Origin: Raillietiella orientalis
Taxonomy: Eukaryota
Assembly: GCA_036172245.1 (NCBI GenBank)
Contig: JAYWIR010000111.1
Coordinates: 1 to 64,000, forward strand
Direction of reading: 5' to 3'
DNA length: 64,000 bases
The position numbers were made by a program, and so were the translations under genes. Under the pieces are notes generated by a model. It did not search any database. It had not been told where the DNA came from and saw only the letters and a list, made by a program, of their open reading frames with translations. Below are positions 6,941-54,560 of the stretch, piece by piece (the stretch's first letter is position 1; the number at the start of each line of letters is the position of its first letter).

Positions 6941-7030
6941 GTTGGAGGACGTGTTTTTCCTTCAGTCCTCAAAGAGTAGTACGAAAGCGCTTTCTTGTGT
7001 GTGGTGTTTAGTGTACATCGTCGGTGTCCA

Positions 7031-22360: not shown

Positions 22361-22374
22361 CACAAGGCGTTCGA

Positions 22375-24259: not shown

Positions 24260-24482
24260 TCCCTTCCCTGCCCCCCAACCTCATTTGTTTGTTTGCATTT
24301 TTGTTATTTTTTTGTTTTTCTCCATCATCTTTCGCTGCCGGGGAGTTCCACGTCGGGCTGCGTCCCGGCGTCCCGGTAGGTCATGTGCATTAGGCCGTGA
24401 GCGGGGCCTGGTACCGCGATTGTAGAGTTATTTTATAAATAAACGCCCCGGGCGTACTTGGGTGGCAACGTTAAATCCCCGC

Positions 24483-27400
24483 TGCGGAGAGAGGACGAGC
24501 TTCTCCTGCGCTCCGCCTGCGTGGCAAAGCGAGTGCTTTTTTTTTCTTGAGTAATTTGTGCGTGCACATCGTCGGTGTAGGATGGCAGCGTTGCCAGAGG
24601 ACACCGCGATTGAAGTAGGCGTGATGGATGCTTGTTCGTCCCCACAGCCTACTGGATCAGGGGCATCCGCTTCGGAATCGTCCCGGCGACGCCGAGGTCA
24701 TGGAGCGCCATGGTGGCCGCGCCTAGCGTGGAAGCCATGGCCGAGATGTAAGCCTACAAGAAAGCGGGGTATAAACCCTCGCTAGTCTACGAGTTAGACA
24801 ACCTTATCGAATGGCGAACTGCAGGCGCCTTTACGAAGGCGCTGCAGAACGCCAATATTTTCGAAAAAGATCTGGACGGCCTCTGCGTCCTCAGCGGCGG
24901 GCATCTGGTCGAGGTGGTATGCAAGGATATCACCTTGGCCCGACACCTGATCACCGACCCGCTGATCGTTGATGGTCGGAAGATCTTGCGGATAACGATG
25001 GACCGCTCGGTGGTGGTCCATCTCACTGGGATCTCCAGTCGCATGACGAGGTCAGCGGTTCGAGAACAGCTACAAAAGCACGGAGAAGTGCACGCGATGT
25101 GGCCCAAGTCCACGATTTTCCGAGGCTACAATAGCCTTTTCGGATGTCAAGCTACGGCGCGTATCACAGTAAAAGAGGGTGGTGCGCTTCCCCACAAGCT
25201 GGAGGTCTGCCAAGAAGCGGTGGACCTCTGGTACGTGGGGAAACGCCAATTTTGTAGCTACTGCAATGCAGTAGGTCATCTACGAAAAAGGTGCCCGAAC
25301 ATTGTGTGCCACCTATGCAGCGAAAAGGGTCACGTTCGGCGCGTGTGCCCTGAGCGCCCCACCCCGGTGCCCCCTGCTGCCAAAAATGCGCAGGGAAAAC
25401 GTGGAAAGCTGGTAGAAACACCAGCTCGCGAAAATTACCGTTCCCAACTGCCAGCCTCCCTTCCTCCCGTACAGACGTCGGAGGAAATAGCTCCCGTGGA
25501 CACGAGAATGGAGGAGGGTTGGCAGCTGGTTCAGGCCAGAAAAGAGAATAAAATTAAAGTGATGCGAGATGTAAAGTCGGAGAAGAAAACTGCCGGCAAC
25601 AAGAAAAAAGCCGCGCCGCTTTCAAGAAAACAACTCCGCGAATGCTCGGTGGTACTCGAACGCTTAGCCGTTCCTGCCGAGTCCGCCCGCGGCAATGTTT
25701 GCGGAACAGCTGATGCGGACGCGATGAATACTCGCGTGGAGGAGCCCATTCTACGTTTAGAGGGTGAGACGCGAGACTCGTGCGCCGACAGCCAGGACGC
25801 CGCGCTCGATAAAGTCGCGGAGGAGCCAGCGGCAACGTTCGCCGTCAGCGATGACGCCGCGCTCGATAAGGTCGCGGAGCAGCCCGCGGCAACGGTCGCC
25901 GCTGGCGAAGACGCTGCCTTCGAGAAAGCGGCGGAGGAGCTCGCAGCAACGCTCGCCGAGCGGGAAACCTCGTCGCGCAAGGGCGTGCGCAGGTCGGCTC
26001 CGACGAAGAGGGCCCCCGCAGGTGGATGCGACCTGAAGGCCGGGAGCGGATCCTCCTCCTCGGAGGCACCCCCCAGGAAGTCGGGACGCAAGTCCCAGAA
26101 ACCCAGCAGGCGCCTCCCCTCCACTAGCGAGGAGGAGAAGCCGGAAGGAAGCGGCAGCGTGGGAAACCCGGAAGGGGGATACCCACGCCCGGAAGCCGTC
26201 GAGTCGGCCACCTCCATGGAGGAGGGTGAGCAGGGGGGGTGAAGTCCTCCCTGCAGTCGCGAAACCTGAGCAGCTTGAACCCATGGAGGAGGGCGAACAG
26301 GTATGCGCGACTCCACCTGCGGGTGATACGGCCGACCCGCCGGCACCGATGGAGGAGGAGGAACAGGTGCCTTCAGTACCTGTAGGCCCTCCCCCTCCAC
26401 CTAGCGTCCCGCCTTAGCAGGTGGCGGACGCTAGGTGCATAACCGTTCGGTGCATTCCGGATCTGCTCCTGGCCAGGCGTGTGTCCCGCTGGGAAGGACT
26501 CGCATCGTTTCTTCTGTGCCCTGGCCTGAAGATTCGAAGATGCGGTCTAATGCTCGGCCGCATTGCAACCCTGGCAAAGCAGAACGACTGGATGGTTTGT
26601 GGCCCTGCCAACTCGTCCGCTTGGCTGGAAGAGACTGCTGGCACCTGGGCTAAGCAGAACCAGAGGTGCGAAGACCGGATGAACTGCCTGCGAGTCGGCT
26701 TATACGCCCGCCGCACTCTCTTTGAAATTCTTCAATTTCCACCGAGTTGCACGTGGGCGGAAGGCACACTGCTTGCTACGGCGATGCTCTTCCTTCAAAG
26801 GGCGCTTCACGGAAGCCGGAAGCCAAGGTGGCATGTCTGCTGCCGTATCGCATGCAGACAGAAGATGATGAGCGGCTGGACCATGGGAGGGTTGACAGAT
26901 GCAACGACCCCTAGTCTCCAGCCGCGTGGATTAAGAAGATGGGGCGAGCTGCTCGGCATTCGATTGGATGACCTGAAGCCGCCTCCGGTTCTACTTGGAA
27001 CCAGGATTCTCCCCCTGAAGTGGCAAGAATCGGCGCTTCTGTGGCTGCATTGGGGTCTACCCTGCAACGCGCGCCGCTTCCACTGGACGCGGGAAAGAGT
27101 AAATCCTGCGTGTGCCAGGTGTGGGGAGCGGGAGTCGCTCCCCCACCTCTTAGTTGAATGCCCTGCCGTCCAGATTCTTTGGAATCGTCTGAAAACGGCC
27201 CTATGGATACCGGATGGTAACAATGTTGAATGTATCTTCAGTCTTGTCTTCGTGCGGGACGCCCTCTGTCCAGCCGCAGCCCTGGCAGCACTTTGCTGCA
27301 TTCGTGGTATCGTGGCGGCCTCGAGTGATGCCGAAGATGAAGTCTGCATCGTGAGGGACGTCATCGAGTATGCTTCTCGCTTCCTGCAGAGAGCTACCCG

Positions 27401-27707
27401 ATGGCCCCATCTAGGAAAGCTGAAAATGGAACTAGAAGGCATCCTGCAAAGAATGGGCGCTCCCAGCAGTTTTCTGTGATCCCTTCCCGGCCCTCCAAAC
27501 TTTTTTTTTTGTGGTTTGTTTCTCTCTTTTATTTTATTTTTGTTTTTTCCCTCATCCCCCTCCACTGCCGAGGAGTGCCACACCGGGCTGCGTCCCGGTG
27601 TCCCGGCAGTTCCGTTATCCCGTGGCCGTCAGTGGGGCCTTGTACCACGTTTTGTATTGACCGTTGAAATGTTTTTAATAAACTTCCCGGCGTATCCGGG
27701 TGGCATC
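24483..27707 (+). mobile_element. Element D: internally deleted or chimeric element (ORF1 joined to the ORF2 C-terminus, no APE or RT)
   Basis: ORF1 runs from ATG 24582 (ORF 24914..26242, two knuckles). Junction near 26431, then ORF 26421..27479 with CARCGERESLPHLLVEC, and the hairpin at 27686-27700. Confidence 0.87.
25796..25960 (+). repeat. Three 57-bp tandem coding repeats (DAALDKVAE-x-PAAT)
   Basis: Units start at 25796, 25853 and 25910. Confidence 0.85.
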
Positions 27708-29086
27708 GCCGAAACCTGGAGGGAGACGGTTCAGGGGAAACTGGTCGCAGAACTCGCGGACTGAGCCCTTCAAGTCGTCCCAGTTCGCGAGCGATTGCAG
27801 ATGGAAGCCTTTCAGGAACGAGCGAAGATGTTGCGCTGCTCCTGCGAGGCGCAACCAGTCCCCTGGTAAGCCACGCTGTGGAGGGTGGACCTCTACCGCA
27901 CGGGTGTATTTCTAGCACGAGCCGGGGATGGTCGGAAAGTTCGGATGGCACTGCCCCTCGATTTCCCACCCGCGAACACAGGTGGTTGTCGAGGAACATG
28001 TGGCGATCCTCGTCTCCGTCCCGGCGTCACCGGCCAACAATTTGCGCGCGTGTATAGCAGCGCACATCTCGTTGACCAGCTGTGCGCGAATGTCGGGCGC
28101 ACCTGCCTGCAGGCGGACGTTAAAGTTTCCGGCAATGAGGTGCGCCTTTCGCATGTCTGCTTCGGCCAGCCAATCTCGCCGCAGGCCTTCGAAGAACGCA
28201 GTGCGTTCCCTGCGCCTGTGGCTCGTGCCGGGCGCGTACACGCTGCTCACGACGAGGTCGATCGTGTCGGACCACTTGGCAACAAGCTGCCCGATTTGAC
28301 CTTCGCCGTCGAAGTGCACGTCGCGCAGCGCATTAACGACGGCTGGCTTCAGCATGAAAGCCACACCGCGGGTGTGGTCTCTCCCGTTATGGTATACGAG
28401 CCGCCCGCCTGCGATCCTTTCGATTTCCTGGGCCTCCCCTGCGTGGAGCACGTGCGTCTCCTGCAGAAGCGCCATGTCGAACTCCCGCAGGCTGGCGGCC
28501 ACTTCTCTCCTCTTGCCTTCGTCGCGCAACCCGTTGACGTTCCAACAGATTACGCGCAGTCGCCGGCAGAAGGAGAGTCCACGCGTTAGTGTGTTTATTG
28601 TGTTTGCTTACCGTCCTCCGCCTGCTGTTCAGCAGGCGGGAGTTGTGTATCCACTGCGATGGGCTGTTCCTCGCAAGGAGGCGGTCCGTCGGTGGTTGTG
28701 GTGCTGGTTGGAGGATCCTGCTTGGCCAAGGCCGCCTCCGGCGAGGAGTCGCGAGACCTCGCGGACATCGCCTCCCCGTCGTAGTGGTCCGACCGCATTT
28801 CCTCCTTCGCCGGTGGAGGTGCGAAGCGCCGCGGGTTGCCTACCTTGCGGCCCGCTTTGCGCTTCGGGAGAGCGACAGCCGGAGCGTCGCCGGCTTCGGC
28901 TTCGGACTCGGAAGTCTCCGGTCCTTTCGCCTCAACCGGACGCCTCAAGGCCTTCTTCTGGGCCTTGGGAGGTTGCTGGAGCATGGCTGCCAACACTTCC
29001 GCCGCCTTGTTGAAGTCCCGGTCGTCGCTGCTCACGCTGGGATCGCGACTTTGTCGCAGCGTCGGCGTTCCCGCAGCGGCGGGTTG

Positions 29087-32000
29087 TTCACACCCGGATG
29101 TGCCGGGGCATTTATTTCATAGAAATAAAATTACAGAAAAATGTCGCGTGGCGAACCCGAAGGTTCACCACTCCAAAACAGCTTGCTGGTTACCGGCTCC
29201 GTGCCGGAGAGGTCCTTCCGATGCGCGGGGATGGGAAATAAAGAAAAACAAAAGGAAACAAAAAGTTCAAATGTGGGGGGGAACAAATGTTGTAGGGGTG
29301 GGAGGGCGGGGAAGGGATCACGGTGCGCGTGGAGAGGTCCTCTAGATCCTATTCAGGATCCGAACAAGCTGAGTCCTTTCAGCGCCCAAGTGGCGCCACT
29401 TGCAGACACTTCGCGCGAAAACGCGAGTCCAGTGTAAGGCGTTGCCGGTTGGCTGACGCCTTCTTCTGGTGGCGTTCCAAGCGGCCACTATTCCTCTGAT
29501 GCAGCAGAGGACTGCTACACTAGCGGGCGGGGACAAGGCGTCACTACAGAAGAGGCGCCTGAAAACGTCCTTTGGGCCGCATCCGCGCAAGTCCAGGATC
29601 GCCGCGAGACGATCCCATAAAGGGCGGATGGCACTGCACTCGATGAGAAGGTGGGGGAAGGTCTCTTTTTCCCTGCACCGGTCACAATAAGGATCCACAG
29701 CCCCCCGGGTTGTGTGATGAAGGCGTGCTTTGAATGGGAGTCCCCAGAAAACCACAAGCAACGCCACATCCTGCCATTTCAGGGGGAGAGATGCACTGTT
29801 CCAGGACGCTGGGGGCCACTTCATCTCCTCCGGAGATAGTTCAAGTAGCTCGCCCCAGCGTCGAATTCCGTTTGGCGAGACACTCGGCGTCGCAGCGTCA
29901 GCTAGCTGCCGAGATGTCCACGCCTTTATCGATTGTGTCCTGCCGCCTATAGTGCAGGACACGGTCGATTTCCCCTGCTCGCTACTGTCCCTGGCATTCA
30001 CAAGGAAGGGCAGCACTGGGGCGAGGGGGGTTATCAAGGCCCACAGAAGCTTGTCGTGGGACTCCACGATCTCCTGCAGCGTCCAGCGGGCGTGCCTTTT
30101 CATACAAGTGTTCCTTGTGTCCGCCGGAACGTGGATCTTTACCCAGGTGGAGACTGACTCGTGCAACCAGGTAGGGTAGTTCCCTGGGAGGCAGGAGATC
30201 CAGGCGTTGTCCCGAAACGCAACAAAGATGCGTCGCAGCATAGAGTCACAGTATGGTCTTCTGCATACGCGCGCAGACAGAAACGACAAAAGTCCGCCGA
30301 TTCCGCAGGCTCGTTGGGCCAGTAGGCGTGCTGGAACGCACCAAGGCGTGTCCCAGAATTCCGCCGCAAGGGCGAGAGTCCCCAATCGAAGTTGGAGTTC
30401 CATGCGCTCCGGCGTAAGTACGCCAAGTCCACCGTCCTTACGTGGAGCGCACAAGTCTTTGAGCCTCACACGGGACCTCCCTTTGCCCCAAAGGACTGTC
30501 CTCAGGAGGCCCGCTGCTCGTTTCCGAATAAAATAAGGGGCGGGGCAAACAAAAAGTAGGGGGCGAAGGAGGGGAGCCGCAAACGCGTTCCACACCGCGG
30601 CCCGTTCCTGCAAGTAGAACTTGCCTTCTTGGAACGGACCGATCGCCAACGCTGCCTTTTGGAGACGGTCGGACCAGGCTTCTGCTGCGCAGAAGTCCCC
30701 CAACGGTACGCCGAAGTACTTGAAGCACCTGCCCGTGAGGATCCCCAAGCGGATCCAGTCCGACCGTCCAGCCCACGCCGAACCGACGAAGGCCATGGAC
30801 GACTTCGCCCTGTTCACCTCCAGGCCCGTCCCGCGGCGCAGCAACTCGAACAAGTTCTCGAGTGCACTCCCTGGGGTGGACCCGGGAAGCAGCAGCAGAA
30901 GATCGTCTGCATAGGCCGACACGGCAGGCGTGCCGGCACACGAGCTCGGCAGGGTTGCCAGAGTTACCCTGTATGCCCTCAGTACCAACTCGAAGTAGAT
31001 GCTGAAGAGCAAGGGGCTCAGGCTGTCACCCTGCCGGATGCCGCGGCGTACGGGCACGCCGTACACGTGCCGGCCGCTGAAACCGATATTGATTGACGCG
31101 TTGCGCCAGCAGGAGCGCAGGTAAGATTGAAGAACGGCAGGGAAACCCATGCGTTCCAGGAGCTCCAGAAGGAGATCCTTGTCGACGCAGTCGAATGCTT
31201 TGCGCAAATCGACCGCGACGGCAAAGGCTCCCGCCGAGTCCATCCCACCCTCTGCCCGATCTTCTTGGTCAGAGGGGGGCGCGAGGCTCCCTTGACCGTC
31301 CTGTGCAACGCGTTGTCGCAACTGCCACCATGAGCTGGCGAGGAGCAGGTTGGCCTCCATGGTTCGTCCGGGAACAGCATAGGTCTGCTCGGGACTCACC
31401 ACGGAAGCGGCCACCCGCCCCAAACGCTCAGCCCACAACTTGGCATAACACTTTGCGTCCGCATTCACTACTGTGATGGGACGCCAGTTGCCAATGTTGC
31501 GTAAGTCTTCTGATTTCGGCAGGAGACGTACTTTAGCTGACCGGAACGAGGCGGGAACTTCGCCGTGTTCGCGGATCAGCGCACTTAACCTGAGCACCAG
31601 GGGGGCCAGCTCTGGCGCGAAGCGATGGTAAAACTCCGCGGGCAGGCCGTCCTCCCCTGGTGCCTTCCTTCTCTTGAGCCTGTTGATGGCGGAGATGATC
31701 TCCGCCATCGTGAACGGTTCCGCCAATCTGGAACGGTCCTCCTCCTTGAGCGCGGGAGCGCCATCCGGCAGCGGGCGCTGCGCGAAATGGCGCTCAGGTG
31801 TTAGTGGCGCGTACAAGGAGGAATAAAACTCCCGCACGATGCGGCTTACCTGGGCTGGGCTGGAGCGTTCTTGGCCCTGATGATTTAGCAGGCAGGCCGA
31901 GCCTGACTGCCAGGCCTGCCTCTCCGCCTCAGCCTTGAATTCAGCCAGGCGACGGACGTCGGGACGCCGGGAATAACGGCGCGCCTGGAGGTACGCCCGC

Positions 32001-35700: not shown

Positions 35701-36375
35701 TCGCAAAACTCACGGACTGAGCACTTCATTTCGTCCCAGTCCGCGAGCGTCTGAAGCTTGAATCCTCGCAGGAAACAGCGTAGATGTTCCGCCGCTCCTG
35801 CGAGGCGCAACCAATCCCTTGGCAGGCGCCATGTTTTCAGGGGAGGGCCCTTATTGCGCGGATGTAACTCGAGCACGAGCCGTGGATGGTCGGACAGCTC
35901 TGCCGGGAGCGTTCCTCGAGTTCCCACCCGCGTGCACAGGTGGTTGTCGAGGAACATGTGGTCGATGTTCCGATCTCTCCCGGCATCGCCGGCCAACCAG
36001 TTGCGCGCATGCATGGCTGCGCACAACTCGTTGACCAGCTGTGCTCGTCCGCTGGGCGCACCTGCCAGCAGGCGGAGATTGAAATCGCCCGCAATGAGGT
36101 GCGCCCTTCGCACGCCTGCTTCGGCCAACCAGTCTCGCCGCAAGGTTTCGAAGAACGCAGTGCGTTCCTCGGCCCTGTGGCTGCTCACCGGAGCGTACAG
36201 GTTCGTGACTACGAGGTCGATCGAGTCGGACCACTTGAACACAAGCTGCCCAACTCGACCATCCCCGTCGAACCGTGCACTGCGCAGTGAGTTGTCGACG
36301 GTTGGCTTTAGCAGAAAGGCCACTCCGCAGGAGTTGTCCGTTCCGTTCTTCCACAGTAGCCGCCCTCAGGGTACA
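32736..36375 (-). mobile_element. 5'-truncated element, tandem unit 2 (frameshifted copy of unit 1)
   Basis: ORFs 35364..36323, 34665..35354, 33646..34977 and 33263..34003 closely match unit 1, with the same 5' breakpoint. Confidence 0.92.
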
Positions 36376-37597
36376 GGGTTGAACAGCTGGCGTGTCTTTA
36401 CATCGCATCGATCCGTCACCGGAGCCAGTATCGATCGCCGGCATGCGCTTGATGGCCACGCTGGACGCTTTGATGGTTGGGCGTGGCGCTACCTTCCCCT
36501 TGCCCTCCACCACTTTCGCCGATGCGGCCGCGGTTTTTTTGGCGATTTTTACTTTACGGGTGACCAGCTGCCAGCCTTTCTCGTCGGCAGTCTTTTCCGG
36601 GAGCTCCTGTACCGAGTCCCTTTCTTGCTGCGCGACTTTTGTCGGAGCCGACGGCTGATCCCCTTTTGTGGAGTTTATTACTGGTTTTGCCTTCCCTTCC
36701 TTCTTTTGCGGAAGTTTTGGCGTTGGAGCGACGTTCATCGGGCACACCACTTTGGTGTGGCCCTTCGCGCCGCACGTTGGGCAAACTGCGTCCGGGCACC
36801 GCTTTTTCAAATGCCCGAACGACTTACAGTTTCCACAAAATTTAGCTTTCCCCACAAACCAAATGTCGACAAACTGGTCGCCAATTTGGAGCTTGTGGGG
36901 AAGCTGTACGCTTTCTCGAAGCGTCACGCGCGCGCCTACTCGCCCACTAAATGCACCGTTCACTCCGATGGTGTTGGGCTTTCTCCACATCGCGAAAACG
37001 CTTGCGAATTTTTCCAGTTCAGCGCAGATGGCGTTCTCATCCATCCGTACTGTTGTCCCTGTTAGGTGGATCACAATGAAGTGGTCCACCGTGTGTGGGA
37101 GTAAATTCCTGCCCTCAAATTGTACGGGCGTGCAGAGCATGTTGTGGGTAAGAGCTGCATCCTTGAAGATGAGCTCCGCCAACTGCCCTCCGCTCCGTAT
37201 AGAGAGGCAAAGAATTTCATGGTCGGCAATGCCCATCTTTTTAATGGCATTGCAGAACTTTCGCGCCCTTAACGGGGAATATAAATTGCCTACCTTGTAC
37301 AGGAGGGCGGGATTGTAGCCCTTCTGGATGTAGGATTGGATTTCGGCGGCGACATCGGGCGTTTCCGCCGCTGCCACCGCGCTCCAGGCCCTCGCCGTAG
37401 TGGCGGGTTCAGAATTAGTGGTGGGGCGTGATCCCACTTCTTTTGGCTTGGGAGGCGCGGTCTTCCCACCTCCCTCACCTGAAACTGCGGCGTTCACAGG
37501 CATTTCTGCCTGTCAACGGCCGCCAAACTCACACGAAACACCAGAAAAGAAAAACTCCCTATCCACGGAGCGCACAACAATTGCGTTTCCGTTTGCC

Positions 37598-37925
37598 GTT
37601 TGCCACCCGGATATGCCGGGGCATTTATTACTCTAATTTTTTACAAAAATTAGATAATAAAGTCTTTCAAAAGTTAATTGTGGGAAACACTTGGTTTTCC
37701 CACCTTGGTTGACGTGTCTGTTGCCGGTGCATAGACCGGTTAGGTCCATTCCCGAGGCGCATGGTTAGGGAAAACTAGAACAAAAACGAACAAAAAGAGA
37801 GATAACTGAAAGGGAAACAGTTATATGTGGACAAGGGGGGGCAGGGAAGGGATCACTGGGCGCCTGGGTCGGTCCTCTGCATTCTGTTGAGGATGCAGTC
37901 AAGTTCAGTTTTTATTTTCAGTGGT
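37598..37925 (-). mobile_element. Short 3' fragment (last ORF2 codons, 3' UTR, hairpin) head-to-tail with element E
   Basis: LNRMQRTDPGAQ then TGATCCCTTCCC; terminal AATAAATGCCCCGGCATATCCGGGTGGCAAAC. Confidence 0.85.
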
Positions 37926-37929
37926 TCTT

Positions 37930-40690: not shown

Positions 40691-40754
40691 CTGAAATCGG
40701 TTCTTCCTGCAGGAAAAACCTGGCGCCTGGAAAGTGCCTTAAGATTACCTACCT

Positions 40755-41011: not shown

Positions 41012-42700
41012 TTTTCACCCGTTCACGCCTGGGTGTTTATTAAAAAAACACTATACATTTGCGGTACTAGGCCCCGCTACGGCCAAAATTTCATGGGACC
41101 TGTCAGGAAGCCGGTTCTGAGGCCAGCTTGTGTTCCTCGGCAGTATAGGGGATACGGGGTAAAACAAAAAGAAAAATAAATTAAACATCAAAAAGAAACT
41201 ATTTGGGGGACCGGGAAGGGATCACAATCCGCTAGAGGAAGAGACTATCCTTTCCAAGATGCCGCAAACGCGTTCCACACCGCGGCCCGTTCCGGCAGAA
41301 GGAACTTGCCTTCCAGGAACCGGCCGATCACCGTCTCGACTCTTTGGAGGCAGCTGGACCACGCTTCCGCAGGGAAATAGTCCCCCAACGGCACACCAAG
41401 GTACTTGAAGCACCTCGCCGTGGGGATCCCCAGACGGACCCAGTCCTGCTGCCCTGCCCACGCCGCACCTATTGGCACAACCGATGACTTCGCCTTATTT
41501 ACCCGTAGTCCAGTCCCGCGGCTTTGCAGATCGAAGAAATCCTCGACTGCGGCTGCCGGGGCGGACATAAGCAAAAGGAGCAGAAGATCATCGGCGTAAG
41601 TTGCTTCGGCCGGCGTACCTGGACACGAGCTTGGCAGGGCAGCCAATGTCACCCTGTATGCTCTCACAACCAGTTCGAAATAGGTGCTAAAGAGCTGGGG
41701 AATCAGGCTGTCGCCCTTCCGGATGCCGCGCCTCACCGGCACGCCGAACACGTACTGTCTTCTGAAAAACAAGTTGATGATCGCATTGCGCCAGCAGGCG
41801 CGCAGGTAGACCGTTAAGGTGTCCGGAAAGCCGATGCGATCCAGGAGCCCCAGAAGGATTTCCTGGTCCACGCAATCGAACGCTTTGTGCAAATCGACTG
41901 CGATCGCTAGAGCCCCCGTTTCTCCTTGGTCGTCCCTTACTTGCTGCGCTGGCGCCCTCAAATCATGTTTCTCGACATTCCGTTCTTTTTCCAAATTTTT
42001 CTCGCGTTGTACATGGAACCATGTGCTGACGAAGAACAGGTTCGCTTCCATGCTTCGCTTGGGAACAGCGTACGTCTGTTCTGGACTAACGAAGCTTTCA
42101 GCTACCTGCTCCAGTCGCGCAGCCTACAGTGCAGCCAGCAGCTTGGCGTCCGTGTTCACAATCGTGATCGGACGCCAGTTGCATAATTTTCTGAGGTCTC
42201 CTCCCTTAGGAAGGAGCCTCAACCTTGCTGAACAAAACGAGCTGGGAACATCGCCTTCGTTCCGGGTCTGCCGTGTCAGTTGGAGCACCAGGGGGGTCAG
42301 CTCTGCAGCGAAGCTACTGAAAGCACTCCGGCGGCATGCCGTCCTCCCTTGGCGCCTTACGGCTCTTCAGCCTTTTAATAGCGGTGATGATTTTACCGGT
42401 CGTAGAAGGCTCGTCAAGGCTTTCTTTTTCCTCCTCCTCTATGGCCGGGACTCCATGGGGGAGCAATTGTCGCGAAACGTCTCACTCCACAGCTACTCTG
42501 GTGTAAAGGAAGGAGTAAAATCCACGCACGAGGCGACGTATCGATTCCGGGTGGGAGTATTGCTGGTCCAGGTCGTCCAGCACGCTGAGCGGCTTGGTAT
42601 GCCAGGCTTGACGCTCGGCCCCGGCTTTGTACTCGGCCAAAAGACGGATGTCAGGTTTCCTCGCGGATTGACGAGCGTGCAAACACGCCCTTTCGTTACG
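41012..42700 (-). mobile_element. Internally deleted element: RT fragment joined near 41262 to the last ORF2 codons, 3' UTR and hairpin
   Basis: ORF 41245..42051 (DLHKAFD, YADD). WNAFA is followed directly by sequence reading GILERIVSSSSGL-TGA in another frame. Confidence 0.85.
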
Positions 42701-45700
42701 GAAGGACGTGTTCTTCGTTTGCTGCGTCAACGAGTACCGGAAAGCTGTTTCTTTTTGGGAAGTGTGTGTTTTTTCACATCGTTGGTGTCCGATGGCATCG
42801 CTGTCAGAGGACATCACGATGAAGGTAGGCGTGGGGAAGGCTAGCCTTCCTCACGGTCTACTGGATCAGGGGCGGCCGCCCCGGAATCACCTCCGGCAAA
42901 GTCGAGGACGTGGAGCGCCATGGTGGCAGCGAAGAGCGCGGAAACCTTGGCGGAGCAATCAACCTACAGGGCCTCCGGATATATACCATCACTGGTTTAT
43001 AAGGTAGGACCCCTGTTTGATGGTCGCACCGCGCCGGCCTTTAGCAAGGCGTTACAAGATTTTCCTGTTCGCTACGAGGATATTGACGGTCTTTCCGTAC
43101 ACAGCGAAGGGCAGTGCGTGGAGGGCGTCTGCAAAGACGTAGCCTTAGCACAGCGCTTGATAAACACCCCGCCGAATGTGGATGGCCGGAAAATCCTACC
43201 TTTTAGCATTAACCGCTCCGTAGTGGTCCATCAAACCGGGATAACAAACCGCATGACGTGCTCTGCGGTAAACGACGAACTAAAAAACTACGGCGAAGTA
43301 CACGCGCTATGGCCAATGTCAACCATCTTTGATGCATTTTATAGCCATTCCGCAAGGCAGGCTGCAGCGTGTGTCCCCGTAAATGAGCGTGCTGGGTTGC
43401 CCCAAAAACTGGAGGTCGCAAAAGAATCCGTCGACCTCTGTTACGTAAGGAAACTCCGCTTTTGTGGCTACTGCAATGCAGTAGGGCACTTGAGCAAGCT
43501 GTAACCGAACATTGTGTGCCACCTATGAGTGAGAATGGGCACGTTCGACGCGTGTGCCCTAAGCGCCCCACACCGGCGCCTGATGAAGCCCAAAAGGCAC
43601 AGGGAAAGAGCGGAAAGCTGGTGGAAAGACCAGCACGTGACATTGGCCGGCCCCAGTCGCCATCTCCTCCTCCTCTCACCCAGTCTCATAGGATAAAACC
43701 GCGAAAGACACGGGAGTGGAGGAGGGATGGCAACCGGTTAAGGCCACGAAGGAGAAACAAATGGTGAAAGAACCACTGAAGAAAACGGATAAAAAGAACA
43801 GGGCCGGTAAAAAGAATAAAGCCGCGCCGCTGTGAGAAAATCTCCGCGAGTGCTCGGTAGCTCTGGAGTGCGTAAGCGTTCCTCAGGCTGCCAGCCGAGA
43901 CGACGAGCCTTCCCTCGCCGTTTTCGCGGCGCCCGAGATTCGCGACGACGAACCCTCTGTTTACACAGAGGATGAGCCGCGCGACGCGCGCGACGCTGCA
44001 AGGACACCGCCTTCGCGAAGGCGGCGGAGGAGCTCGCGGTAACGCTGGCCGAGCGTGAGAATCCCTCACGCAAGGTCGTGCGAAGGCCGGCTCCACCGAA
44101 GAAGGCCCCCGAAGGTGAGTTCGATCTGGGGGCCGGAAGGGCATCCTGCTCTCGGAGGCACCTTCCCGGAAGACGGGACGTAAGTCCCAAAAACTGAGGA
44201 GGCGCCTCCACTCCACGAGCGAGGAGGAGAAGCCGGAAGCCGACGCTAGCGTGGGAAATCCGGAGATCAAATTCCCACGCACGGAAGCCGACGAGCAGGC
44301 CACCAACATGAAAGAGGGTGAACAGGGGGGCGAATTCCTTTCTGCGGTCGCCGAACCTGAACAGCTTGCCCCCATGGAGGAGGGCGAACAGGTAGGCGCG
44401 ACCCCACCTGCGGGTGAACCGGCCGACGGGCCGTTACCCATGGAGGAGGGGGACCAGGTGCCTTCAGCACCTGACCCTAGCGTCTCGCCCCAACTGGTTG
44501 CGGACGCCGCACTGCCACTTTCCCAGGATTAACACCTTGGTTCTCCTGTCGCCGTCGGAACCGCGTGTCCAGTTGGAGCGTGAACGGGCTGCGCGACGAC
44601 GGCAACAGACGAGATACGGCCGACACCCTGCGTGACTTCGACCTCGCCCTGCTGCAGGAAATCCACGTAATCACCGCGGCAGACGTCCAGGTGATCGAGA
44701 CGATCGCGGGGGATCGGCTGTATTGGCGATACGTCGCCCGCATCACCTGTGGGGTCGCGTTTTTCGTGAAGACGGCTATCGATGCTGCCGTGAAGGGCGT
44801 GCGGTTTGATGACGACGGTCGGATCGGTCAGCTCATTCTCAGCTGGTCCGACTCGGTGACCTAATCGTCACAAACGTGTATGGCCCCAGCGGCAAACAGG
44901 GTTACCGCGACCGCACCAGGCTGCTGGAAACACTGAAGCGCGACTGGCTGGCGGATACCAATGTGCGAAAGGCTCACCTGATAGCGGGAGATTTCCATCT
45001 CCGCCTGCTAACAGGTGAGCCGGAAACACAAGTGAACGCGATGAACGAGTTGTGCGCCGCCATGCCTGCGCGCAACTTGTTCGCGGGTGAGACAGGAATG
45101 GTCCGCGGCATCGACCACGTCTTCCTGGACGGTGACCTGTGTTCACGCGTCGGCAAACGGGGGAGGGTTGTGTCGACGTTGTCGGACCATTCCCGGCTAA
45201 TTTTCGAGATGCGGCCTCGCGACAAAGGACCGCCATCCAGGGATTGGCGTCTGCCGGGGGATTGGACGCGACTCTCAGGTGCGAAGGAACACCTTAGCGA
45301 AAACCTGACAGGCGTCACGCTCCGGAATCTCGCTGACTGGGACCTTTTTAGGGAATCGGTCCGTAAGTTCTGCGAGGAGTTCCCCTTGCATTGCCTGCCC
45401 CCTGGATTCGGGAAAGAGCTCGCAACCATACGGCCTATTTACAGGCCCGCCGATACGAGAGAACCCACAACTTCCGTCGCCTAGCAAAATACCGAGGCCG
45501 CGGCAAGCACGAGCCAAACAATCCGGATCGGCCATCTTGCTGGACGACCAAGGCCGGGAACGCTCTGCCCCACCAGCGATCAGGCACCTCCTGCGACGGT
45601 TCTACTTCTCCCCTTACGTCAGGGCACCCCAGAGCGTGATGCCTTGAGGCTCCTGCTTCCGAAAGGAGCTTCGGCAATAGGGGAGGAAGAGACGATTAGC

Positions 45701-47735
45701 CTCGACGAGCCTTTTACCACCGGCAAAATTCTTGCCGGTATTAAAAGGTTCAAGAGGCGGAAAGCACGAAGGGAGGGCCTCCTGTCCGCGAAGTTTTTCC
45801 AATGCTTCGCGGCAGAGTTGGCACTCCTGGTGCTTCAGTAAAGCAGGCTGATCCAAGACGAAGGTGACCTTCCCGCCTCGTTTCGGTCAGCCAGAGTGAG
45901 GCTCCTTCCTAAGGGAAAAGACCTGAGAACATTGAACAATTATCGTCCGGTCACAATTGTCAACACGTACGCAAAGCTGATTCCTGGACTGTGAGCTTCG
46001 CGTCTAGGACAGGTGGCAGACTCCATAATTAGCGCAGAGCAGACATACGCTGCTCCCGGGCGAAGTATGGATGCCAACCTGTTCCTCGCGAGCACATGGT
46101 TCCATATGCAATAATGTCAATATGAAACAGCGACAAGGATTAACAACCCGACTTTGAAGCCGCCAGTTGGACTAAGGTCGGACAACGGAGCAGGGAAGGG
46201 AGCCCTAGCGCTCGCAGTCGATCTCCACAAGGCGTTCGACTGCGTGAATCAGGAGCTACTGTTGAAGCTTTCGGGGCGCATGGGCTTCCCACCCTCTCTT
46301 CTCTCATTCCTGGGCTCTTCCTGGCGGAATGCGCTAATCAACGTCTCCTCCAGCGGACAAACAACGTACGGCGTGCCGGTGCGGCAAGTCATACAAAAGG
46401 GAGATAGCCTCAGTCCTCTGCGCTTTAGCACCTACTTTGAGTTGGTGATGAGAGCGTACAGGGTAACATTGGCTGCCTTGACTAGCTCGTGCACCGGCAC
46501 GCCTGCAGTAGCTGCTTTCGCCGACTACCTTCTGCTGATGTTGCCCATGTCCGCCCCGGCAGCCGCAGTCGAAGATTTCTTCGATCTACTAAGCCGTAGG
46601 ACTGGATTGCAGGTTAACAAAGCGAAGTCGTCGGTGATACCGGTGAATGCGACTTGGGCTGGACGGCCTGACTGGATCCGCATGAAGATCCTCACGGCTA
46701 CGAACCTAAAGTACCTGGGTGTCCCGTTGGGGACTTCTGTCTCGTAGAATCCTGGTCAGGTCGTGTCCAAAAGGTAGAGTTGGCAATAGGCCCGCTCCTG
46801 GAAGGCAAGTTCCTTCTGCAGGAAAGGGCCGCGGTGTGGAACGCGTTTGCGGCTCCCATCCTCCGCCCCTTGCTTCTTGTGTGTCCCGTCCCCCGTGACC
46901 TGAAGAAGAGGACAAAAGACTTTCTCCGCATCGCCCTCTGGGGCAGCGGGAGGCCTCGTGTGCCTCTTAAGGACATATGCGCTTTGCGTCGGGACGGAAG
47001 TATTGACATCCTGACGTTGAAGCGCATGGACATACAGCTGCGATGGCGCACCCTAGCCATCGCAGCAAAGACTTGGTACACCTGCTGGTGCGTCCCGGAT
47101 AGCATCCTCGCCAGCCGAGTATCGAGGACGCAAGGACTCGTGTCTTTCCTTCTGTGCCCCGGCCGGAAGGTCAGGAGATGCGGCCTTCTCCTCGGGCGCA
47201 TGGAATCCCTGGTGAGAGAGAACGGCTGGACGGTATGCAGGTTTGCTAACTCCTCCGCTTGTCTGGAGGAATCCGTTGGGACGTGAGCCAAGCTAAACCT
47301 CCAGACTTGACGTGAATGGAACCGCCTGCGACAAGACTGCAACGCCTGCTGCAGCCTACGGACCACACTGGAGTGTCCCGCCTAGAGCACTTGGGCAAAG
47401 ACCACCCCTTATGCTTCGACGCTGCCCTTCCTACGAAGGGCTTCAACCACCTTTCGGACGCCGGAGTGGCACGTCTCCTACCGGATCGCAGGCAGGGAAA
47501 AGAAAATGAGCGGTTGGACAAGGAGTAAACTGGCAGATGCCACGATCCCGAGTGCCCTCCCGCGTGGACTTGTTAGATGGAATGAGCTGCTCGGCATCCC
47601 GACGGATGGCCTGAAGTGGCCCCCAGTGTTAATCGAATCCAAGGTTCTCCCGCTAAAGTGGCAAGAGTGGGCACTGCTGCTGTTTCACTGGGGTTTACCC
47701 TGCAACGCGCGCCGCTTCCACGGGACGCGAGGAAG
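42701..47735 (+). mobile_element. Element F: near-complete decayed element of the B subfamily
   Basis: GGACGTGTTC near 42704, ORF1 remnants 42920..44532, APE 44565..45484 and RT 46154..47286. Interrupted at 47735. Confidence 0.88.
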
Positions 47736-48110
47736 TTTTCACCCGGTCACGCCGGGGCGTTTATTGCTAAACACTATGTTTTCGCGGTACGAGGCCTCGC
47801 TACGGCCAATAGTTTTTTGGACCTGCCGCAGGCTGGCTTGATTCTCATCGGCAGCGGAGGGGGTAGAAGGTAAAAACGAAAAAAAAAATAAAAGAAATAA
47901 ACGAAAAGAAAATATTTGCAGGGCTGGGAAGGGATCACAGCCCGATGGAGAAAGAGACAATCCTTTCTAGGATGCCCTGGAGGTCCCTCTTCATTGTTCC
48001 CAGATGGGACCAGCCGATCGCGATTCGCAGGTATCGACCAGCGTGTACGATGGGATCCCTGTCGATGCTTCCTCTGTTGGCTGCGCTCCACGCGGCCACA
48101 ATCCCTCGGC
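47736..48110 (-). mobile_element. 5'-truncated 3' end inserted antisense in element F
   Basis: AATAAACGCCCCGGCGTGACCGGGTGAAAA on the minus strand; ORF2 end GILERIVSFSIGL-TGA. Confidence 0.87.
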
Positions 48111-48394
48111 TCCAGCTAAAGCAAACGCAGAAGGACCTAGAAAGCATCCTGCGAAGGATGGGCCCTCCTCCTAATAGATAGTGAACCCTCCCCCTCCCTC
48201 CAAACTCCTTTTGTTTTTCTTCATTGCATTTTTTTCGTTTTCTCCCAAACTCCCCTCCACTGCCGCGGAGCGTCACGCAGGGCTGTGTCCCCGCGTCCCG
48301 GCAGGCCCGGTGTTGTGCGGATGTTAGTGGGGCCTCGTACCACGTCTCTGTAGAGTTTTTCTGATAAATGCCTTAGGCGTACACAAGTGGCATC
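48111..48394 (+). mobile_element. 5'-truncated 3' end (GGCATC tail)
   Basis: DLESILRRMGPPP, a 3' UTR like those at 24260 and 27480, and a decayed hairpin at 48369-48394. Confidence 0.82.
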
Positions 48395-51091
48395 ATTAAA
48401 TCCCCGGGGAAGGCCGTGCACAAGGAACTCCTCGCAGAACACGTGGACCGAAACCTTCATGCGGTCCCAGTCTTTAAGTTTCCGGAGGATGAGGCCTCCC
48501 AGTACTTTGTGAAGATCTTTCTCCGCACCTGAGATGCGCGTCCAGTCCCCGGGCAGACGCCACGCCCTGGATGGTGGTCCTCTGTAGCGAGGCATAACCT
48601 CGAATATCAACCGGATTTGGTCCGATAGCGTCGACGGAAGTTTCCCTCGTCTACCGACCCGTGGGCACAGGTCGGCGTCAAGGAAGACGTGGTCTACGCT
48701 TTGGACCATTTCCGGTAGATCCACCAAGAAGTTGCGCGTGCGCATAGCAGCGCACAGCTCGTTAGATGCGTATTTTTGCTTGCACGGCACACCTGTGAGC
48801 AGGAGGATGTTGAATTCCCCACCGATCAGATGCACTTTGCGTACGTTTGTATCCGCCAGCCAGTCGCGCTACAGGGTTTCGAGGAACAAAGAACGTTCCC
48901 CGTACCCGCATCCTCCGCTTGGAGCGTACACATTGGTCACGACAAGGTCGATCGAGTCGGACCACCTAAGGATGAGCTGGCCAACCCGACTGTCGTTCTC
49001 GAAGCGAACGTCCTTGACGAAGGCGGCGACTGATAGCTTCATAAAAAAGGCGACGCCACAGGTGTTGCGAGCGCCGCATTGCTAAAACAGACGACCCCCT
49101 GCGATCCTCTCGATCTCCTGGGCGTTCTCCGCGGTGATCACGTGGATCTCCTGCAGGAACGCCAGGTCGAAGTCACGCAGGGTGTCGGCCGTATCCCACC
49201 TGTTGCCGTCGTCGCGCAGCCCTTTGACGTTCCAGCAGGCTATGCGGGTCCTACGGCGATAGGCGAGCCCAGGTGTTAATCCTGGGAAAGTGGCAATGGG
49301 GCTCCCGTCACCTTGTCGTGCGGGACTCTAATAGGAGGAGGTGCGTCGCGCACCGCTTGTCCCTCCTCCATGGGGGCCGAGTGTTCGTCAGGGACGTGCA
49401 GAGGAAGGGGGGTTTCACCCACCTGTACTTCTTCCTCCATGAGGATAGCCAGCTGCACGGTGTCGAGAAATCAGGGATTCCCACCCTCGCCTCCCATGCT
49501 GCCGTCTTCCCCCTCGGGTGCCAGTTCATCCTTCTCCTTCTTTATCCGTATGCGCCTCCTGGGATTCTGGGACTTGCTCTGTAGTCTTCTTTGCTGGCGC
49601 ATCCGTTGAGGAGGACACACTTCCGGCATCCGATTCGGCCTCACCTGCATCCGGAGCCTTCCTCGCGGGCGGCCGTCGTAAGCCTTTCCTGGAGTTCTTC
49701 TCACGGCCTTGCAGTTCTGCCTCGAGTTCTTCCACTGCCTGCTGGAAAGCGGCATCCCCGATCGCGTCAGACGCGGCGCGCGGTTCATCCTCTGTTTCCC
49801 CAGAGGGTTCGCCATCGACCGTCGCGGCTTCGGCGGACGCGAGGGAGGAAATTGCTCCCCCGGGAGCGGCATCGAGTGCCTCCACACGCTCTTACTTTAT
49901 CGAACAAGCGCGAAGTTTTTCGCGGCACGGGTTTTTACGCTGCGTTTTTGTTTTCCCTGCGCTTCGTTCGGTACTCCAATGCTTTCTTCGGGGCTGTACC
50001 GTCTGTCGGCCTTCGCCGTCGTTAGCGTCGTCGGGAGTGCTCGAAATCGATGTTTGCTGGGATGGCTTAGAGACTGGCATCTGGCTCCTTACGGCCTGCT
50101 TCATGTTATTCGTCTCTCTCGCCCGTTTCCCCTTTGCCTTTTTGGCAGCGGGAGGGAGCGGGATTTCTTGTCTTGGGCACACATTGCGGACGTTGCCCTT
50201 GTTTCCACATAAGTGGCATTGGATGTTAAGGCACCGTTTTTTTTAATTGCCCTGTAGCATCGCAATGGCCACAATATTTGGTCTTTCTCAGTTACCAAAC
50301 AACGAATATTTCCTCGCCGATATTTACTTTGTGGAGAAACCCACCATTCTCTGGTAGTGTGACGCGGGCAGCGGCAATCCCACTGAAGAGCCTTTCGTAC
50401 GTTCGGAAGACATTGGGTTCGGCCCAATACGCGGGCACATTACTGTGTTTTGACAACTCCTCATGGACACTGGTTTTGTCCATTCAAAGTGCTAGGCCAG
50501 TGAGGTGGACCACGAAAGAGCGGTCCTCCATCACAGAAAAGATAATGCGGCCGTCCACCGTAATGGGGGTGTTTAGCAGGCGCTGCACTAGACTCGCTTC
50601 TCTGCAAGTCAGCTCAACTCGCTGGCCCCCACTAAGGACCGAGAGGCCCTCGATGTCTTCCTCTCTCACATTTAGTCTTTGCAGCTCCATTTCAAAGAAG
50701 CGTGCAATTTTCTAGTCGAGCACACTGCCTACCTTGTAGATCCGCGACGGTTCTTAACCGCTGTCCTTGTAGGCAGTCTGCTGCGCTACTGCAGCCGGGG
50801 ATGGTGCAGCAACGACAGCACTTCAACTCGTCGCCGCTGGCGAAGAGGGTCGCGAAGGGGCGGCTGCCCCCAATTCCGATGGGGCAAGCGCCTTGGATTC
50901 CGTGAGGGCGGACGCCCCCACATTCATGGTTGCTGGAGAGCAAGTCGCCTCTTCTCCCTCAATTTCCATCGCGGTGTCCTCAGGCATTTCTGCCATGGGG
51001 CACCGGCGCTCCTACACACCAGACAAAACCTCCGAAATCCTTCGCACTAACTAGACTGCTGAGCAATGCAAACCACCTCTGCTCCCTAGAA
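48395..51091 (-). mobile_element. Element H: decayed 5' half (ORF1 and APE)
   Basis: ORF1 remnants 50484..50690, 49526..49885 and 49276..49458; APE remnants (GEFN, VDH) in ORF 48221..48835. Confidence 0.85.
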
Positions 51092-52780: not shown

Positions 52781-52939
52781 ACGCGAACTTAACAACTGCA
52801 TTTCTCTGACCAGTCCGCGGGGCGATGCGAAAGCACGTTCACCCGCTATAAGTACGCTGAGCAGAGTAAGCCCTGAAAATGCCTGGTACGGGGATTGGGA
52901 TTTACCCCCACATGATCGTTGATTGTCCTGCACTTAAAC

Positions 52940-53452
52940 ACTTTTGGGAATGACTCTTGAGATCCCGGTTGACAGCCTTCCGAGAGTCATTTTTCGGCTC
53001 TTCTTCGTGCAAGATGCCCTGCAGCCAACCTTTGCTGTAGGAGCGCTTTGCTGCTTCCCCGGTATTGTTGCTGCGTGGTGATGATGAGACGAAGAAAATG
53101 ACTACGACAGCAACGTGATCGAGTATGCAGCTCTCTTCTTGTGAACAGCAACTCGTTGGCCCCATCTATAAAGAAATATGCAAGAGGACCTCGAAGGCAT
53201 CCTTCAGTGAATGGACCCTGCACCAAGTAATCAGTGATTTCTTATCAACCCTTCAGAGATGTCTTTTTTTTTCATTGTGGTTTATTATTCATTTTGCTTT
53301 TTCCCCCATCCACTACCGCTGCGAAGGAGAGTCTAGTCGTTCTGCCCACCAACGAACCTCCAGGTCTGTTGTTGTGTTAGCTGTAGAGTGAACCTTGTAC
53401 TGAATCGGCTGTTCCGTTTATAGTAAATTCCTTGCTGTGACCGGGTGGCAAC
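52940..53452 (+). mobile_element. Decayed 3' end (GGCAAC tail)
   Basis: KRTSKASFSEW region homologous to other ORF2 ends; terminal TGACCGGGTGGCAAC. Confidence 0.7.
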
Positions 53453-54560
53453 ATGGAAACGCCAGTTCCGCATGGTCTTTGTCACCTTGTTGCAAACAAC
53501 GAAAGCAATCCTACAGGCATTCTAGGGCTTTGCCGTTAACTGGACGTCCCGCCTGAGCGACCGGCGAGATCGGCGGCTTGCTGTTCGGTGAGAGCGTGTG
53601 TCTCAAGCAACAGCACCAGATCGAACTCGCGCAAGACGTAAAATACAAACTTCCCATTATCATTGTCCTGCAGCCCGTTGACGTTTCAACAGGCCATGTG
53701 GACGCGACGGAAAGATGCAAGCCCACTCATTACTGCTGCAGACATGGCAGAGCTACCTTATCCCCGTCCGGCGAGGCATCAGCCTGAAGCACGGCATAGT
53801 GGGGGGTGCAGAAGCACTCGTTCTTCCCCACGCCACTTGCGGCTCTCTGGAGTCGAGGAGAATCGCCTTGGACTTAAGAGTATCGGGAACCGTTCCCGGC
53901 ATCAGGTTTGCTCCAGGAAACTTTGGGCTTGCGCGCAGCCTAGGGTTTCCCGTGGGCTTGAGGAACCAGAATCGCTGCTGACGGACTTGCTGCCATGGGA
54001 CTCAACCTCGGAGTAACAATTTCGTGTGCATGATAGACGTTCTTTCTACCTACTCTTTTGCTGTCAGCCTGTACCTGCTCCAGCATTCAGCGAGGTTGCC
54101 GCCGTCGCCTATCCCGATTTCAACGTCTCGGCGTCGTCTAGTTCCCTTTCGCTGCGGGCGACAGCGGCAGCGCACATGACCGCAGCGGAGACTTTTTCTT
54201 GCGAATTTCTTGATGCACGGTGCTGCCTCCTCACTCCGCCTACCTCTCTGATGAGGAAATGGGAAGGATCTCTTGTCTTCCACTGTTTATTCTTTTCCTT
54301 CACAAGAGTCCAACCGTATTCATCGTTCTCTATGTTGCCTCGGCTTAATGCAAAAGCTGCAGTATCTTTTGCATCCTTTCGAGGTCCTCCCGCTGGGCGA
54401 TAGGGGCCAATTTCTTCCTCGCCACCTTTGCCTTTTGTATCTCTTTATCGCAAGGTACGGGCAAATTCGAGCAAGGTTTTGCAGTCTTTCCCACGTATCA
54501 AATCTCTGCGGACGGACTGTCTTCACTTTTTACACTTCAAGGAAGTTATATGTGAGGTAG
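53453..54560 (-). pseudogene. Highly decayed ORF1 C-terminus and APE N-terminus at the cluster edge
   Basis: CAGCAG-TAATG junction at 53728-53732, then NVNGLQD and EFDLVLLLETH; eroded knuckle (NLARICP). Confidence 0.7.

What the first reader, a model, noticed from the sequence alone, without database searches (positions are those of the whole stretch)
24464..53463. Elements with a GGCA(A/T)C tail target the P-x-G-F-(G/N) codons just after the APE domain
3' junctions: 27707 GGCATC|GCCGAAACCTGG (host antisense L-P-P-G-F-G), 48394 GGCATC|ATTAAATCCCCG (L-P-R-G-F-N) and 24469 GGCAAC|GTTAAATCCCCG (same sequence, surviving only as a 13-nt remnant). At 53452 (|ATGGAAACGC) and near 37592 (ACGGAAACGC) a similar NNNAAA(C/T) site is used. 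The 5' end of element F (42701) lies a few codons away at R-N-E-R, also antisense.
Basis: seen in the sequence. Interest (0 to 1): 0.7.

Follow-up and report, generated by a model that had tools for sequence, protein, structure and literature searches.

The report
LINEs targeting sister LINEs' coding motifs
One lineage of LINE jumping genes in this genome inserts again and again, backwards, at one exact base of a conserved coding motif in related jumping genes, and sister lineages do the same at other motifs, so the parasites pile into one another instead of into host genes.

Summary
The hotspot is real and holds genome-wide. The elements are L1/Tx1-type LINEs without a poly(A) tail. Of 90 distinct GGCA(A/T)C tails, 31 sit antisense at one codon boundary of ORF2 (G-F-G^E-G, EN-RT linker) in 13 host types, and 10 sit directly before another copy's head. 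For a sister family, 17 of 20 sampled tails and 28 of 28 informative full-length heads are on target. Off-target copies (10-15 bp TSDs) give a core, CC(T/C)(T/A/C)C^GCC(G/C), that ranks this site in the top 10 of ~7,000-11,800 positions in 6 of 7 hosts. Corrections: the 24470 'remnant' is the element's own head, which carries a target copy and seeds tandem arrays; 42701 and 48394 are the two ends of one insertion; 53452 and 37592 are other sites. Other lineages hit D-L-x-K-A-F-D (23 of 40) and H-W-T-R-G (6 of 20), also antisense. Best reading: inherited endonuclease preference plus head-target annealing. The scan noted this hotspot in other windows of this genome; the genome-wide counts are new here. 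No paper found describes it; Tx1 TE-targeting and Zepp nesting are precedents.

The parts
24470..24481 (+). 12-nt target copy at the head of the H1-family element (genome consensus GCCGAATCCCCG; here 3 transitions away)
   Evidence: 28 of 28 informative H1 heads begin with this 12-mer whatever the host
24482..26431 (+). H1-family 5' UTR and ORF1 (CCHC knuckles)
   Evidence: 93% to full-length L155; Pfam zf-CCHC
26442..27707 (+). 3' part of an H2/X-family element fused to the H1 head (chimera or deletion); ends AATAAA, CCCGG/CCGGG hairpin, GGCATC, no poly(A)
   Evidence: 92% to L143; fold
27708..28658 (-). host LINE APE and linker, cut after L-P-P-G-F-G (codon 234)
22361..24469 (+). 3' part of an H1-type element, in tandem upstream of the 24470 head; its other pieces lie at about 6946-9147, 9562-9672 and 15581-16832
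15982..16007 (-). empty target (ACCCTC^GCCGAAACCGG, antisense of G-F-G-E-G) in that element's own ORF2
42701..48394 (+). element F, near full length, antisense at codon 234 of one host; about 8 nt of target deleted, head shortened, no TSD
41260..42700 (-). downstream half of F's host (resumes at R-N-E-R, codon 238)
48395..49324 (-). upstream half of F's host (APE to L-P-R-G-F-N)
16833..22360 (-). B-family element inserted antisense at RT motif D-L-H-K-A-F-D with a TSD; its own linker reads G-F-G-T-G
5509..5560 (+). second B-type head joined antisense to a K-A-F-D motif
9673..15581 (+). C-family element inserted in sense at the APE x-D-F-N codons (aa 95/96), TTTCAAT duplicated
47733..47990 (-). 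E-family 3' stub inserted antisense in F at H-W-T-R-G (aa 1006)
53413..53452 (+). divergent GGCAAC tail joined to the antisense of an APE C-G-x-G-V segment; not the hotspot
37575..37634 (-). GGCAAAC tail in tandem before another family's head; not the hotspot
12545..12580 (-). empty codon-234 site; further empty ones at 19703 (G-F-G-T-G), 32017, 35663, 45413

Best explanation
A clade ('A') of L1/Tx1-type LINEs integrates by target-primed reverse transcription at the DNA word CCYTC^RCCGAA(A/T)CC. The most abundant conserved source of that word is the antisense strand of the G-F-G-E-G codons in the EN-RT linker of sister LINEs, kept alike across diverged families by protein constraint. SHOWN: the site, the orientation, many host families, 9-15 bp TSDs, a short core motif also used off target, a family-specific target copy at each element's 5' head, tandem growth upstream of older heads, recursive nesting, and different sites for other lineages. 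INFERRED: (1) the APE endonuclease nicks at the core CC(T/C)(T/A/C)C^GCC(G/C); (2) the target copy in the head lets the cDNA 3' end anneal to the cut upstream flank, so full-length insertions finish best at matching sites and regenerate a target in front of themselves; (3) landing in other LINEs is tolerated by the host and so persists. The cut could lie one base further left, because the tail's last C and the site's -1 C coincide.
For: 31 of 90 tails at the codon in 13 host types, plus 10 before heads. H1 family: 77 of 99 with the motif, 17 of 20 on target in a sample, 28 of 28 heads on target. Seven truncated copies with host on both sides and distinct 5' ends, six with a 9-13 bp TSD. A matrix from off-target sites only ranks the site 1, 2, 2, 4, 5 and 10 of 7,272-11,770 positions in 6 of 7 hosts. 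Head 12-mer matches the family consensus better than the host's own 12-mer in 6 of 14 classified heads, all 6 in the two host types that differ most (L063, L070; L066, L075, L084, L085); the other 8 do not discriminate. L137 and L124 TSDs include bases of an older head, fixing the order of tandem growth. 37 of 38 A-tailed rows form one branch (SH-like 100). B and E families use other motifs. APE determining the target, and cDNA association with upstream target, are proposed for other LINEs (PMC4494074, PMC1950540, PMC6895275; passages read).
Against: 49 of 90 tails (46 after removing near-duplicates) are off target, so specificity is a preference, not stringent. The core carries only about 6.4 bits, and equally scoring sites in the same hosts are not hot, so a further determinant is needed and is not shown. 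One host type accounts for 17-18 of the 31 and may be a few events amplified; its own continuation is seen at the 5' side in only 1. Some loci are segmental duplicates. No biochemistry. The tree is FastTree only.
Confidence: 0.78

Rival explanations
1. A few old insertions were multiplied as composites (segmental duplication or co-retrotransposition), giving a false hotspot.
For: 17-18 of 31 share one host type at 87-100% identity; near-identical pairs exist (L125/L134, L147/L148, L216/L221, L217/L220, L218/L219); the C insertion at aa 96 recurs in 9 of 19 H1 copies read and may travel as a composite.
Against: 13 host types in set 1, 7 in the H1 sample, 14 for B, 6 for E; seven both-sided truncated copies with different ends; at least five head families use the same base.
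Confidence: 0.04
2. Only a short endonuclease or 3'-priming preference plus purifying selection and heterochromatin clustering; the match to ORF2 codons is incidental and the head copy is a passive relic.
For: The off-target core alone ranks the site near the top. On-target copies concentrate on small contigs: 26 of 32 records on C53-C136 against 7 of 30 on C1-C21. All 17 TSD-defined off-target copies are truncated (120-3,301 bp), as selection against long off-target copies would also give.
Against: Sites scoring as well or better in the same hosts and the same nests are hit at most once each (9 other ORF2 positions), against at least 13 events at one base. Three separate lineages each fall on a conserved ORF2 motif, all antisense.
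Confidence: 0.13
3. RNA-guided homing: the element RNA (head or read-through 3' end) pairs with the target and selects it, with the endonuclease playing a minor role.
For: Each family's head is a target copy, and H1's equals the H2/X family's site, which is mostly occupied (13 filled, 5 empty) while H1's own site is mostly empty (2 filled, 38 empty). There is no poly(A), and nearly all flanks begin RCC.
Against: 5'-truncated copies lacking the head also land on the site with host-specific TSDs. Occupancy differences can reflect family age. RNA ends were not observed.
Confidence: 0.05

Closest known systems
Tx1-clade target-specific LINEs: Tx1L in Tx1D; crocodilian Tx1-Mar/SINEU-3 in Mariner-N4_AMi; Tx1-8_Crp and Tx1-4_AMi in LTR retrotransposons; Tx1-9_AMi in Harbinger (PMC4494074: passages and section 15 read; its Fig. 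3 and supplements not seen)
   Same: APE-type two-ORF LINEs that prefer a site in another transposon; opposite orientation and tandem insertions flanking a TSD are reported for SINEU-3.
   Different: Here the target is a protein-coding motif of LINEs of the same group, shared by many host families; several lineages divide ORF2 among them; hosts and invaders swap roles recursively.
Zepp / ZeppL L1 LINEs of green algae (PMC3446292, PMC8226300, bioRxiv 10.1101/2025.03.28.645958: passages read)
   Same: L1-type, GC-rich, nested insertion into existing copies that builds clusters.
   Different: Zepp forms tandem arrays of 3' ends of one family, one cluster per chromosome, and has poly(A) (table in PMC3747384). 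Here insertion is antisense at a fixed ORF2 codon across families, with no poly(A) and many places per contig.
Mammalian L1 ORF2p
   Same: Best solved-structure match (E 3e-39 against 3e-18 for R2); EN-RT-zinc finger order; 5' truncation; 10-20 bp TSDs.
   Different: L1 nicks T-tract/A junctions loosely (PMC1950540, passages) and has a poly(A) tail (recalled).
R1/R2-type site-specific LINEs using target sequence at RNA ends (PMC6895275, passages); CNL1 arrays (PMC12810828, passages)
   Same: cDNA-upstream-target association proposed for 5' junctions; arrays.
   Different: Targets are rDNA or telomere repeats; R2 and CNL1 belong to the R2 group rather than APE LINEs.

Membership tests
L1 group sensu lato (L1 + Tx1) non-LTR retrotransposon | ORF1 with CCHC knuckles, ORF2 with APE, RT and C-terminal zinc motif | tested here: met
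   Pfam zf-CCHC, Exo_endo_phos, RVT_1, zf-RVT (weak, below cut-off); same family set in Atlas neighbours
L1 group sensu lato (L1 + Tx1) non-LTR retrotransposon | RT closer to L1 than to other LINEs | tested here: inconclusive
   L1 ORF2p 3e-39 against R2 3e-18; only these two groups appeared among the solved-structure hits; no clade-wide tree
L1 group sensu lato (L1 + Tx1) non-LTR retrotransposon | 5' truncation and 10-20 bp TSD (TPRT footprint) | tested here: met
   17 of 46 off-target copies with a TSD found, nearly all 10-16 bp by a mismatch-tolerant search
L1 sensu stricto | 3' poly(A) tail | tested here: not met
   no poly(A) at any of 94 tail records; ends are AATAAA, hairpin, GGCA(A/T)C
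Tx1 clade | target preference (over 20% of flanks in one sequence, the criterion of PMC4494074) | tested here: met
   41 of 90; 17 of 20; B 23 of 40; E 6 of 20
Tx1 clade | RT phylogeny groups with Tx1/Keno/Kibi | not testable with these tools
   no named Tx1 protein was returned; database relatives are 21-31% identical and mostly unnamed, apart from one unnamed 63% hit
Zepp/ZeppL | nested insertion into existing copies | tested here: met
Zepp/ZeppL | one cluster per chromosome, at the centromere | tested here: inconclusive
   copies at several separate places on single large contigs, but on-target copies concentrate on small contigs; contig-level assembly, no centromere data
Zepp/ZeppL | poly(A) tail | tested here: not met
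   no poly(A) here; Zepp listed with (A)n in PMC3747384
Zepp/ZeppL | phylogenetic grouping with Zepp | not testable with these tools
   no Zepp protein available

The most novel reading that the evidence does not exclude
A guild of mutually predatory LINEs: each lineage has evolved an endonuclease, helped by a target copy in its own 5' head, to hit a protein-constrained motif of its relatives' ORF2 (linker G-F-G-E-G, RT K-A-F-D, zinc-finger H-W-T-R-G, perhaps APE x-D-F-N). Victims cannot easily mutate away, are knocked out and overlaid with antisense sequence, and some escape by recoding (the B family's G-F-G-T-G scores at rank 4,598 and was never seen hit). This would be an arms race among retrotransposons, and a natural panel of closely related APE nucleases with different specificities.
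Probability: 0.3. Interest if true: 0.82.

Novelty: new variant of a known kind. Interest (0 to 1): 0.62.

Why it matters
Site-specific LINEs are known to aim at rDNA, snRNA and tRNA genes, microsatellites, DNA transposons, LTR elements or their own copies. Aiming at conserved codons of sister LINEs solves the problem of finding a harmless target that stays recognisable across diverged families, and it explains how dense nested islands grow from the inside. Three or more related lineages with different sites, each with dozens of natural insertions and off-target sets, make the open question of how APE endonucleases change specificity (raised in PMC1950540) directly testable by domain or loop swaps. 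It also warns annotators that such nests yield chimeric consensus sequences.

Tried and rejected
Rfam at gathering threshold on the window: 0 matches, so no RNA-gene target here; off-target flanks were not scanned against Rfam. 'Remnant of a host' for 24470 rejected. 53452 and 37592 as the same site rejected. Escape by mutation: all 5 empty H2/X sites carry one substitution, but most occupied 5' junctions of that family do too, so this is not used as evidence. The IQ-TREE run did not finish; FastTree was used, on 51 of 84 rows after thinning at 88% identity plus 5 database proteins; no E-family row was long enough. Sequencing runs: one DNA holder with a small share, no RNA holder listed; laying its contigs showed related sequence but nothing decisive on junctions. 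The metagenome scan gave 5 distant relatives (26-41%), not examined further. The host organism was not identified: long non-LINE ORFs in the loci were listed but not searched, and names of cluster members could not be obtained. Literature searches on Tx1, target specificity, self-insertion or self-targeting, nested LINEs, Zepp and upstream target sequence found no description of LINEs targeting ORF2 motifs of other LINEs, judged from listings and abstract starts. The library lacks most subscription papers and Repbase Reports; Kojima & Fujiwara 2004, Fujiwara 2015 and Higashiyama 1997 were seen only as citations, and no supplements were read.
Full report
Setting. The window is G000:C111:1-64000 of a 210-Mb eukaryotic assembly in 491 contigs; the organism was not identified. 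Bases 1 to about 54,000 are a nest of related non-LTR retrotransposons on both strands: ORF1 with CCHC knuckles; ORF2 with APE, RT and a weak zf-RVT match. The best solved relative is L1 ORF2p (E 3e-39; R2 3e-18). All families end without poly(A) in AATAAA, a CCCGG/CCGGG hairpin with a family-specific loop, and a short tail; heads share GGACGTG. Codon numbers refer to frame 29345-32719(-). Family labels (A, H1, H2/X, B, C, E) are mine.

Observation. The quoted junctions exist. 27707 and 48394 both fall at codon 234/235, antisense. Element F (42701-48394) is one insertion: its host resumes at R-N-E-R with about 8 nt lost and no TSD (size of the loss inferred from a related host). The 12 nt at 24470 are the head of the next element (below). 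53452 joins the antisense of an APE C-G-T-G-V-S segment, and 37602(-) is a GGCAAAC tail before another family's head. The window thus holds two independent events at the site, and six empty sites (12562, 16003, 19703, 32017, 35663, 45413).

Genome-wide test, set 1. An exact 29-nt tail pattern gave 104 matches, 100 listed. I read 93 of them (94 records, one fetched twice) and dropped that repeat and three pairs identical over 200 nt each side, leaving 90. 31 lie at codon 234 antisense (four assigned by hand: L095 without a blastx hit; L044, L106, L114 with small indels), 10 lie directly before another element's head, and 49 are elsewhere (46 after removing near-duplicates). The 31 fall into 13 host types at 85% identity; one type holds 17-18 records and may be a few amplified events, since its continuation is seen at the 5' side only in L123. 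Counting one event per host type, 13 of 22 ORF2-landing events are at one base; the other nine are at nine different positions (P about 6e-41). Independence is shown directly by seven truncated copies with host on both sides and different 5' ends (L041, L095, L106, L114, L123, L124, L137), six with a 9-13 bp duplication; 3 of the 11 loci tested showed no host upstream, and one (L139) is full-headed. On-target records are 7 of 30 on contigs C1-C21 but 26 of 32 on C53-C136.

Set 2, the H1 family (tail as at 24469, head as at 24482). 77 of 99 exact tails are followed by NYNRAAD against a 1.2% background. Every fifth tail was read: 11 of 20 at codon 234 in 7 host types, 6 before a head, 3 elsewhere. 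Of the 30 best matches to the head, searched without its first 12 nt, 28 had flank: 12 abut host codon 235 and 16 abut another A-type tail (includes the window's own copy and about three likely duplicate pairs). Across all sequence in hand, 46 of 47 hits for five head families are on target or tandem; the exception looks like a false pattern match, and this larger set is biased by how the loci were chosen.

The target. Off-target copies give CC(T/C)(T/A/C)C^GCC(G/C): -1 C in 17 of 17 TSD-defined sites, +3 C in 42 of 46, about 6.4 bits, and nothing beyond +5. A matrix built from these alone ranks the codon-234 antisense site 2, 4, 5, 2, 1 and 10 among 7,272-11,770 positions in six host copies, and 4,598 in the B-family copy whose linker reads G-F-G-T-G. 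Other sites score as well and are not hot, so the core is not the whole story. Empty sites of many families share CCYTC^NCC(G/A)AA(A/T/G)CC because they encode G-F-G-E-G (38 of 40 contexts are empty). Exact-pattern counts, all lower bounds: H2/X site 13 filled, 5 empty; H1's own site 2 filled, 38 empty; 6 empty sites of the 27708-type host. Age may explain the contrast.

The head carries the target. All 28 H1 heads start with GCCGAATCCCCG or a variant (23-28 of 28 per position). In hosts whose own 12-mer is ACCGAAGCCCGG or GCCGAAACCTGG the head still has the H1 form (6 of 14 classified heads; the other 8 do not discriminate, and L078 and L089 keep the host's A at +4). H2, H3 and H4 have their own versions, and L124 keeps both the host copy and TTC plus the head copy. 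A full-length insertion therefore leaves an intact target in front of itself. L137 and L124 are truncated copies whose TSDs include bases of the older head, proving later insertion upstream of it. This gives the tandem at 24469/24470. Recursion also occurs: H2/X copies sitting in a host are themselves cut at their own codon 234 by antisense H1 or H4 copies in 10 loci.

A guild. B-type tails (first 40 of that type): 23 antisense at D-L-x-K-A-F-D in 14 host types, three pairs of them duplicates; 5 of 6 B heads abut the same motif; 88 exact tails are followed by ATCRAA, though those bases may be partly the tail's own. E-type: 6 of 20 antisense at H-W-T-R-G in 6 host types. Weaker, possibly single events: C in sense at x-D-F-N (aa 95) and D antisense at aa 207. 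In a FastTree of RT/C-terminal rows, 37 of 38 A-tailed rows form one branch (SH-like 100), apart from B, C, D and F; the outlier L118 is a 515-bp stub whose upstream ORF2 is probably its host's.

Mechanism. Shown: site, orientation, TSDs, core motif, head copy, order of tandem growth, lineage-specific targets. Inferred: APE-determined nicking, as argued for Tx1 and L1 (PMC4494074, PMC1950540; passages); annealing of the cDNA end to the upstream flank, as hypothesised for R1 and L1 5' junctions (PMC6895275; passages); tolerance of insertions into other LINEs. Whether the antisense orientation is selected or follows from the motif is open.

Known and new. Tx1 families that prefer DNA transposons or LTR elements, with tandem insertions, are in print (PMC4494074, passages and section 15), as is Zepp nesting (PMC3446292, PMC8226300, passages). 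Nine searches found nothing on LINEs that target conserved ORF2 codons of sister LINEs; coverage is limited. Tx1 membership cannot be tested; L1 sensu stricto and Zepp fail on poly(A). I file it as a new variant of target-specific APE LINEs. Earlier notes of this scan reported the same hotspot and the K-A-F-D site from other windows of this genome; I consulted them after reaching this reading, and they are not independent support. Interest 0.62.

Noticed in passing
window 16833-22360(-), 5509(+); L193-L230: B family inserts antisense at the RT motif D-L-x-K-A-F-D (23 of 40 sampled tails, 14 host types); L052 hits the same motif in a more distant element.
   Followed up: yes
window 47733-47990(-); L234, L236, L237, L247, L249, L250: E family inserts antisense at H-W-T-R-G just before the C-terminal zinc motif (6 of 20).
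   Followed up: partly
window 9673-15581(+); L152, L156, L160, L161, L163-L165, L168, L170: C family in sense at the APE x-D-F-N codons; the H1+C composite recurs at different landing sites and may retrotranspose as one unit of about 11 kb.
   Followed up: partly
L115, L151, L166: D family tail antisense at ORF2 aa 207, three loci.
   Followed up: no
window 19703; L121, L128, L141: B family linker reads G-F-G-T/S-G, loses the upstream CTC, scores poorly and was not seen occupied; only 4 copies.
   Followed up: partly
window 29082-36381: Two tandem copies 97% identical (29082-32735, 32731-36381) with TGAACAA tails; a 412-bp 3' stub of the same family at 9151-9562.
   Followed up: no
window 56460-58826 and 61629-64000: Inverted repeat, 94% over 2.4 kb or more, lower GC, no match in the fetched loci; nature unknown.
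   Followed up: no
window 24474-27707: Chimera of H1 head and ORF1 with an H2/X 3' end, junction near 26431-26442.
   Followed up: partly
G000 small contigs and contig ends: On-target nests concentrate on small contigs and near contig ends; centromeric or subtelomeric location untested.
   Followed up: no
window 3342, 51751; L103, L109, L123, L142: F-type tails (GGGTGAAAAACC) land at varied positions; no hotspot seen.
   Followed up: no
window 6920-6946; L007/L046: Two junctions at the ORF1 segment A-A-F-E-x-x-A-E-E-L-A-A, one sense 5' end and one antisense 3' end.
   Followed up: no
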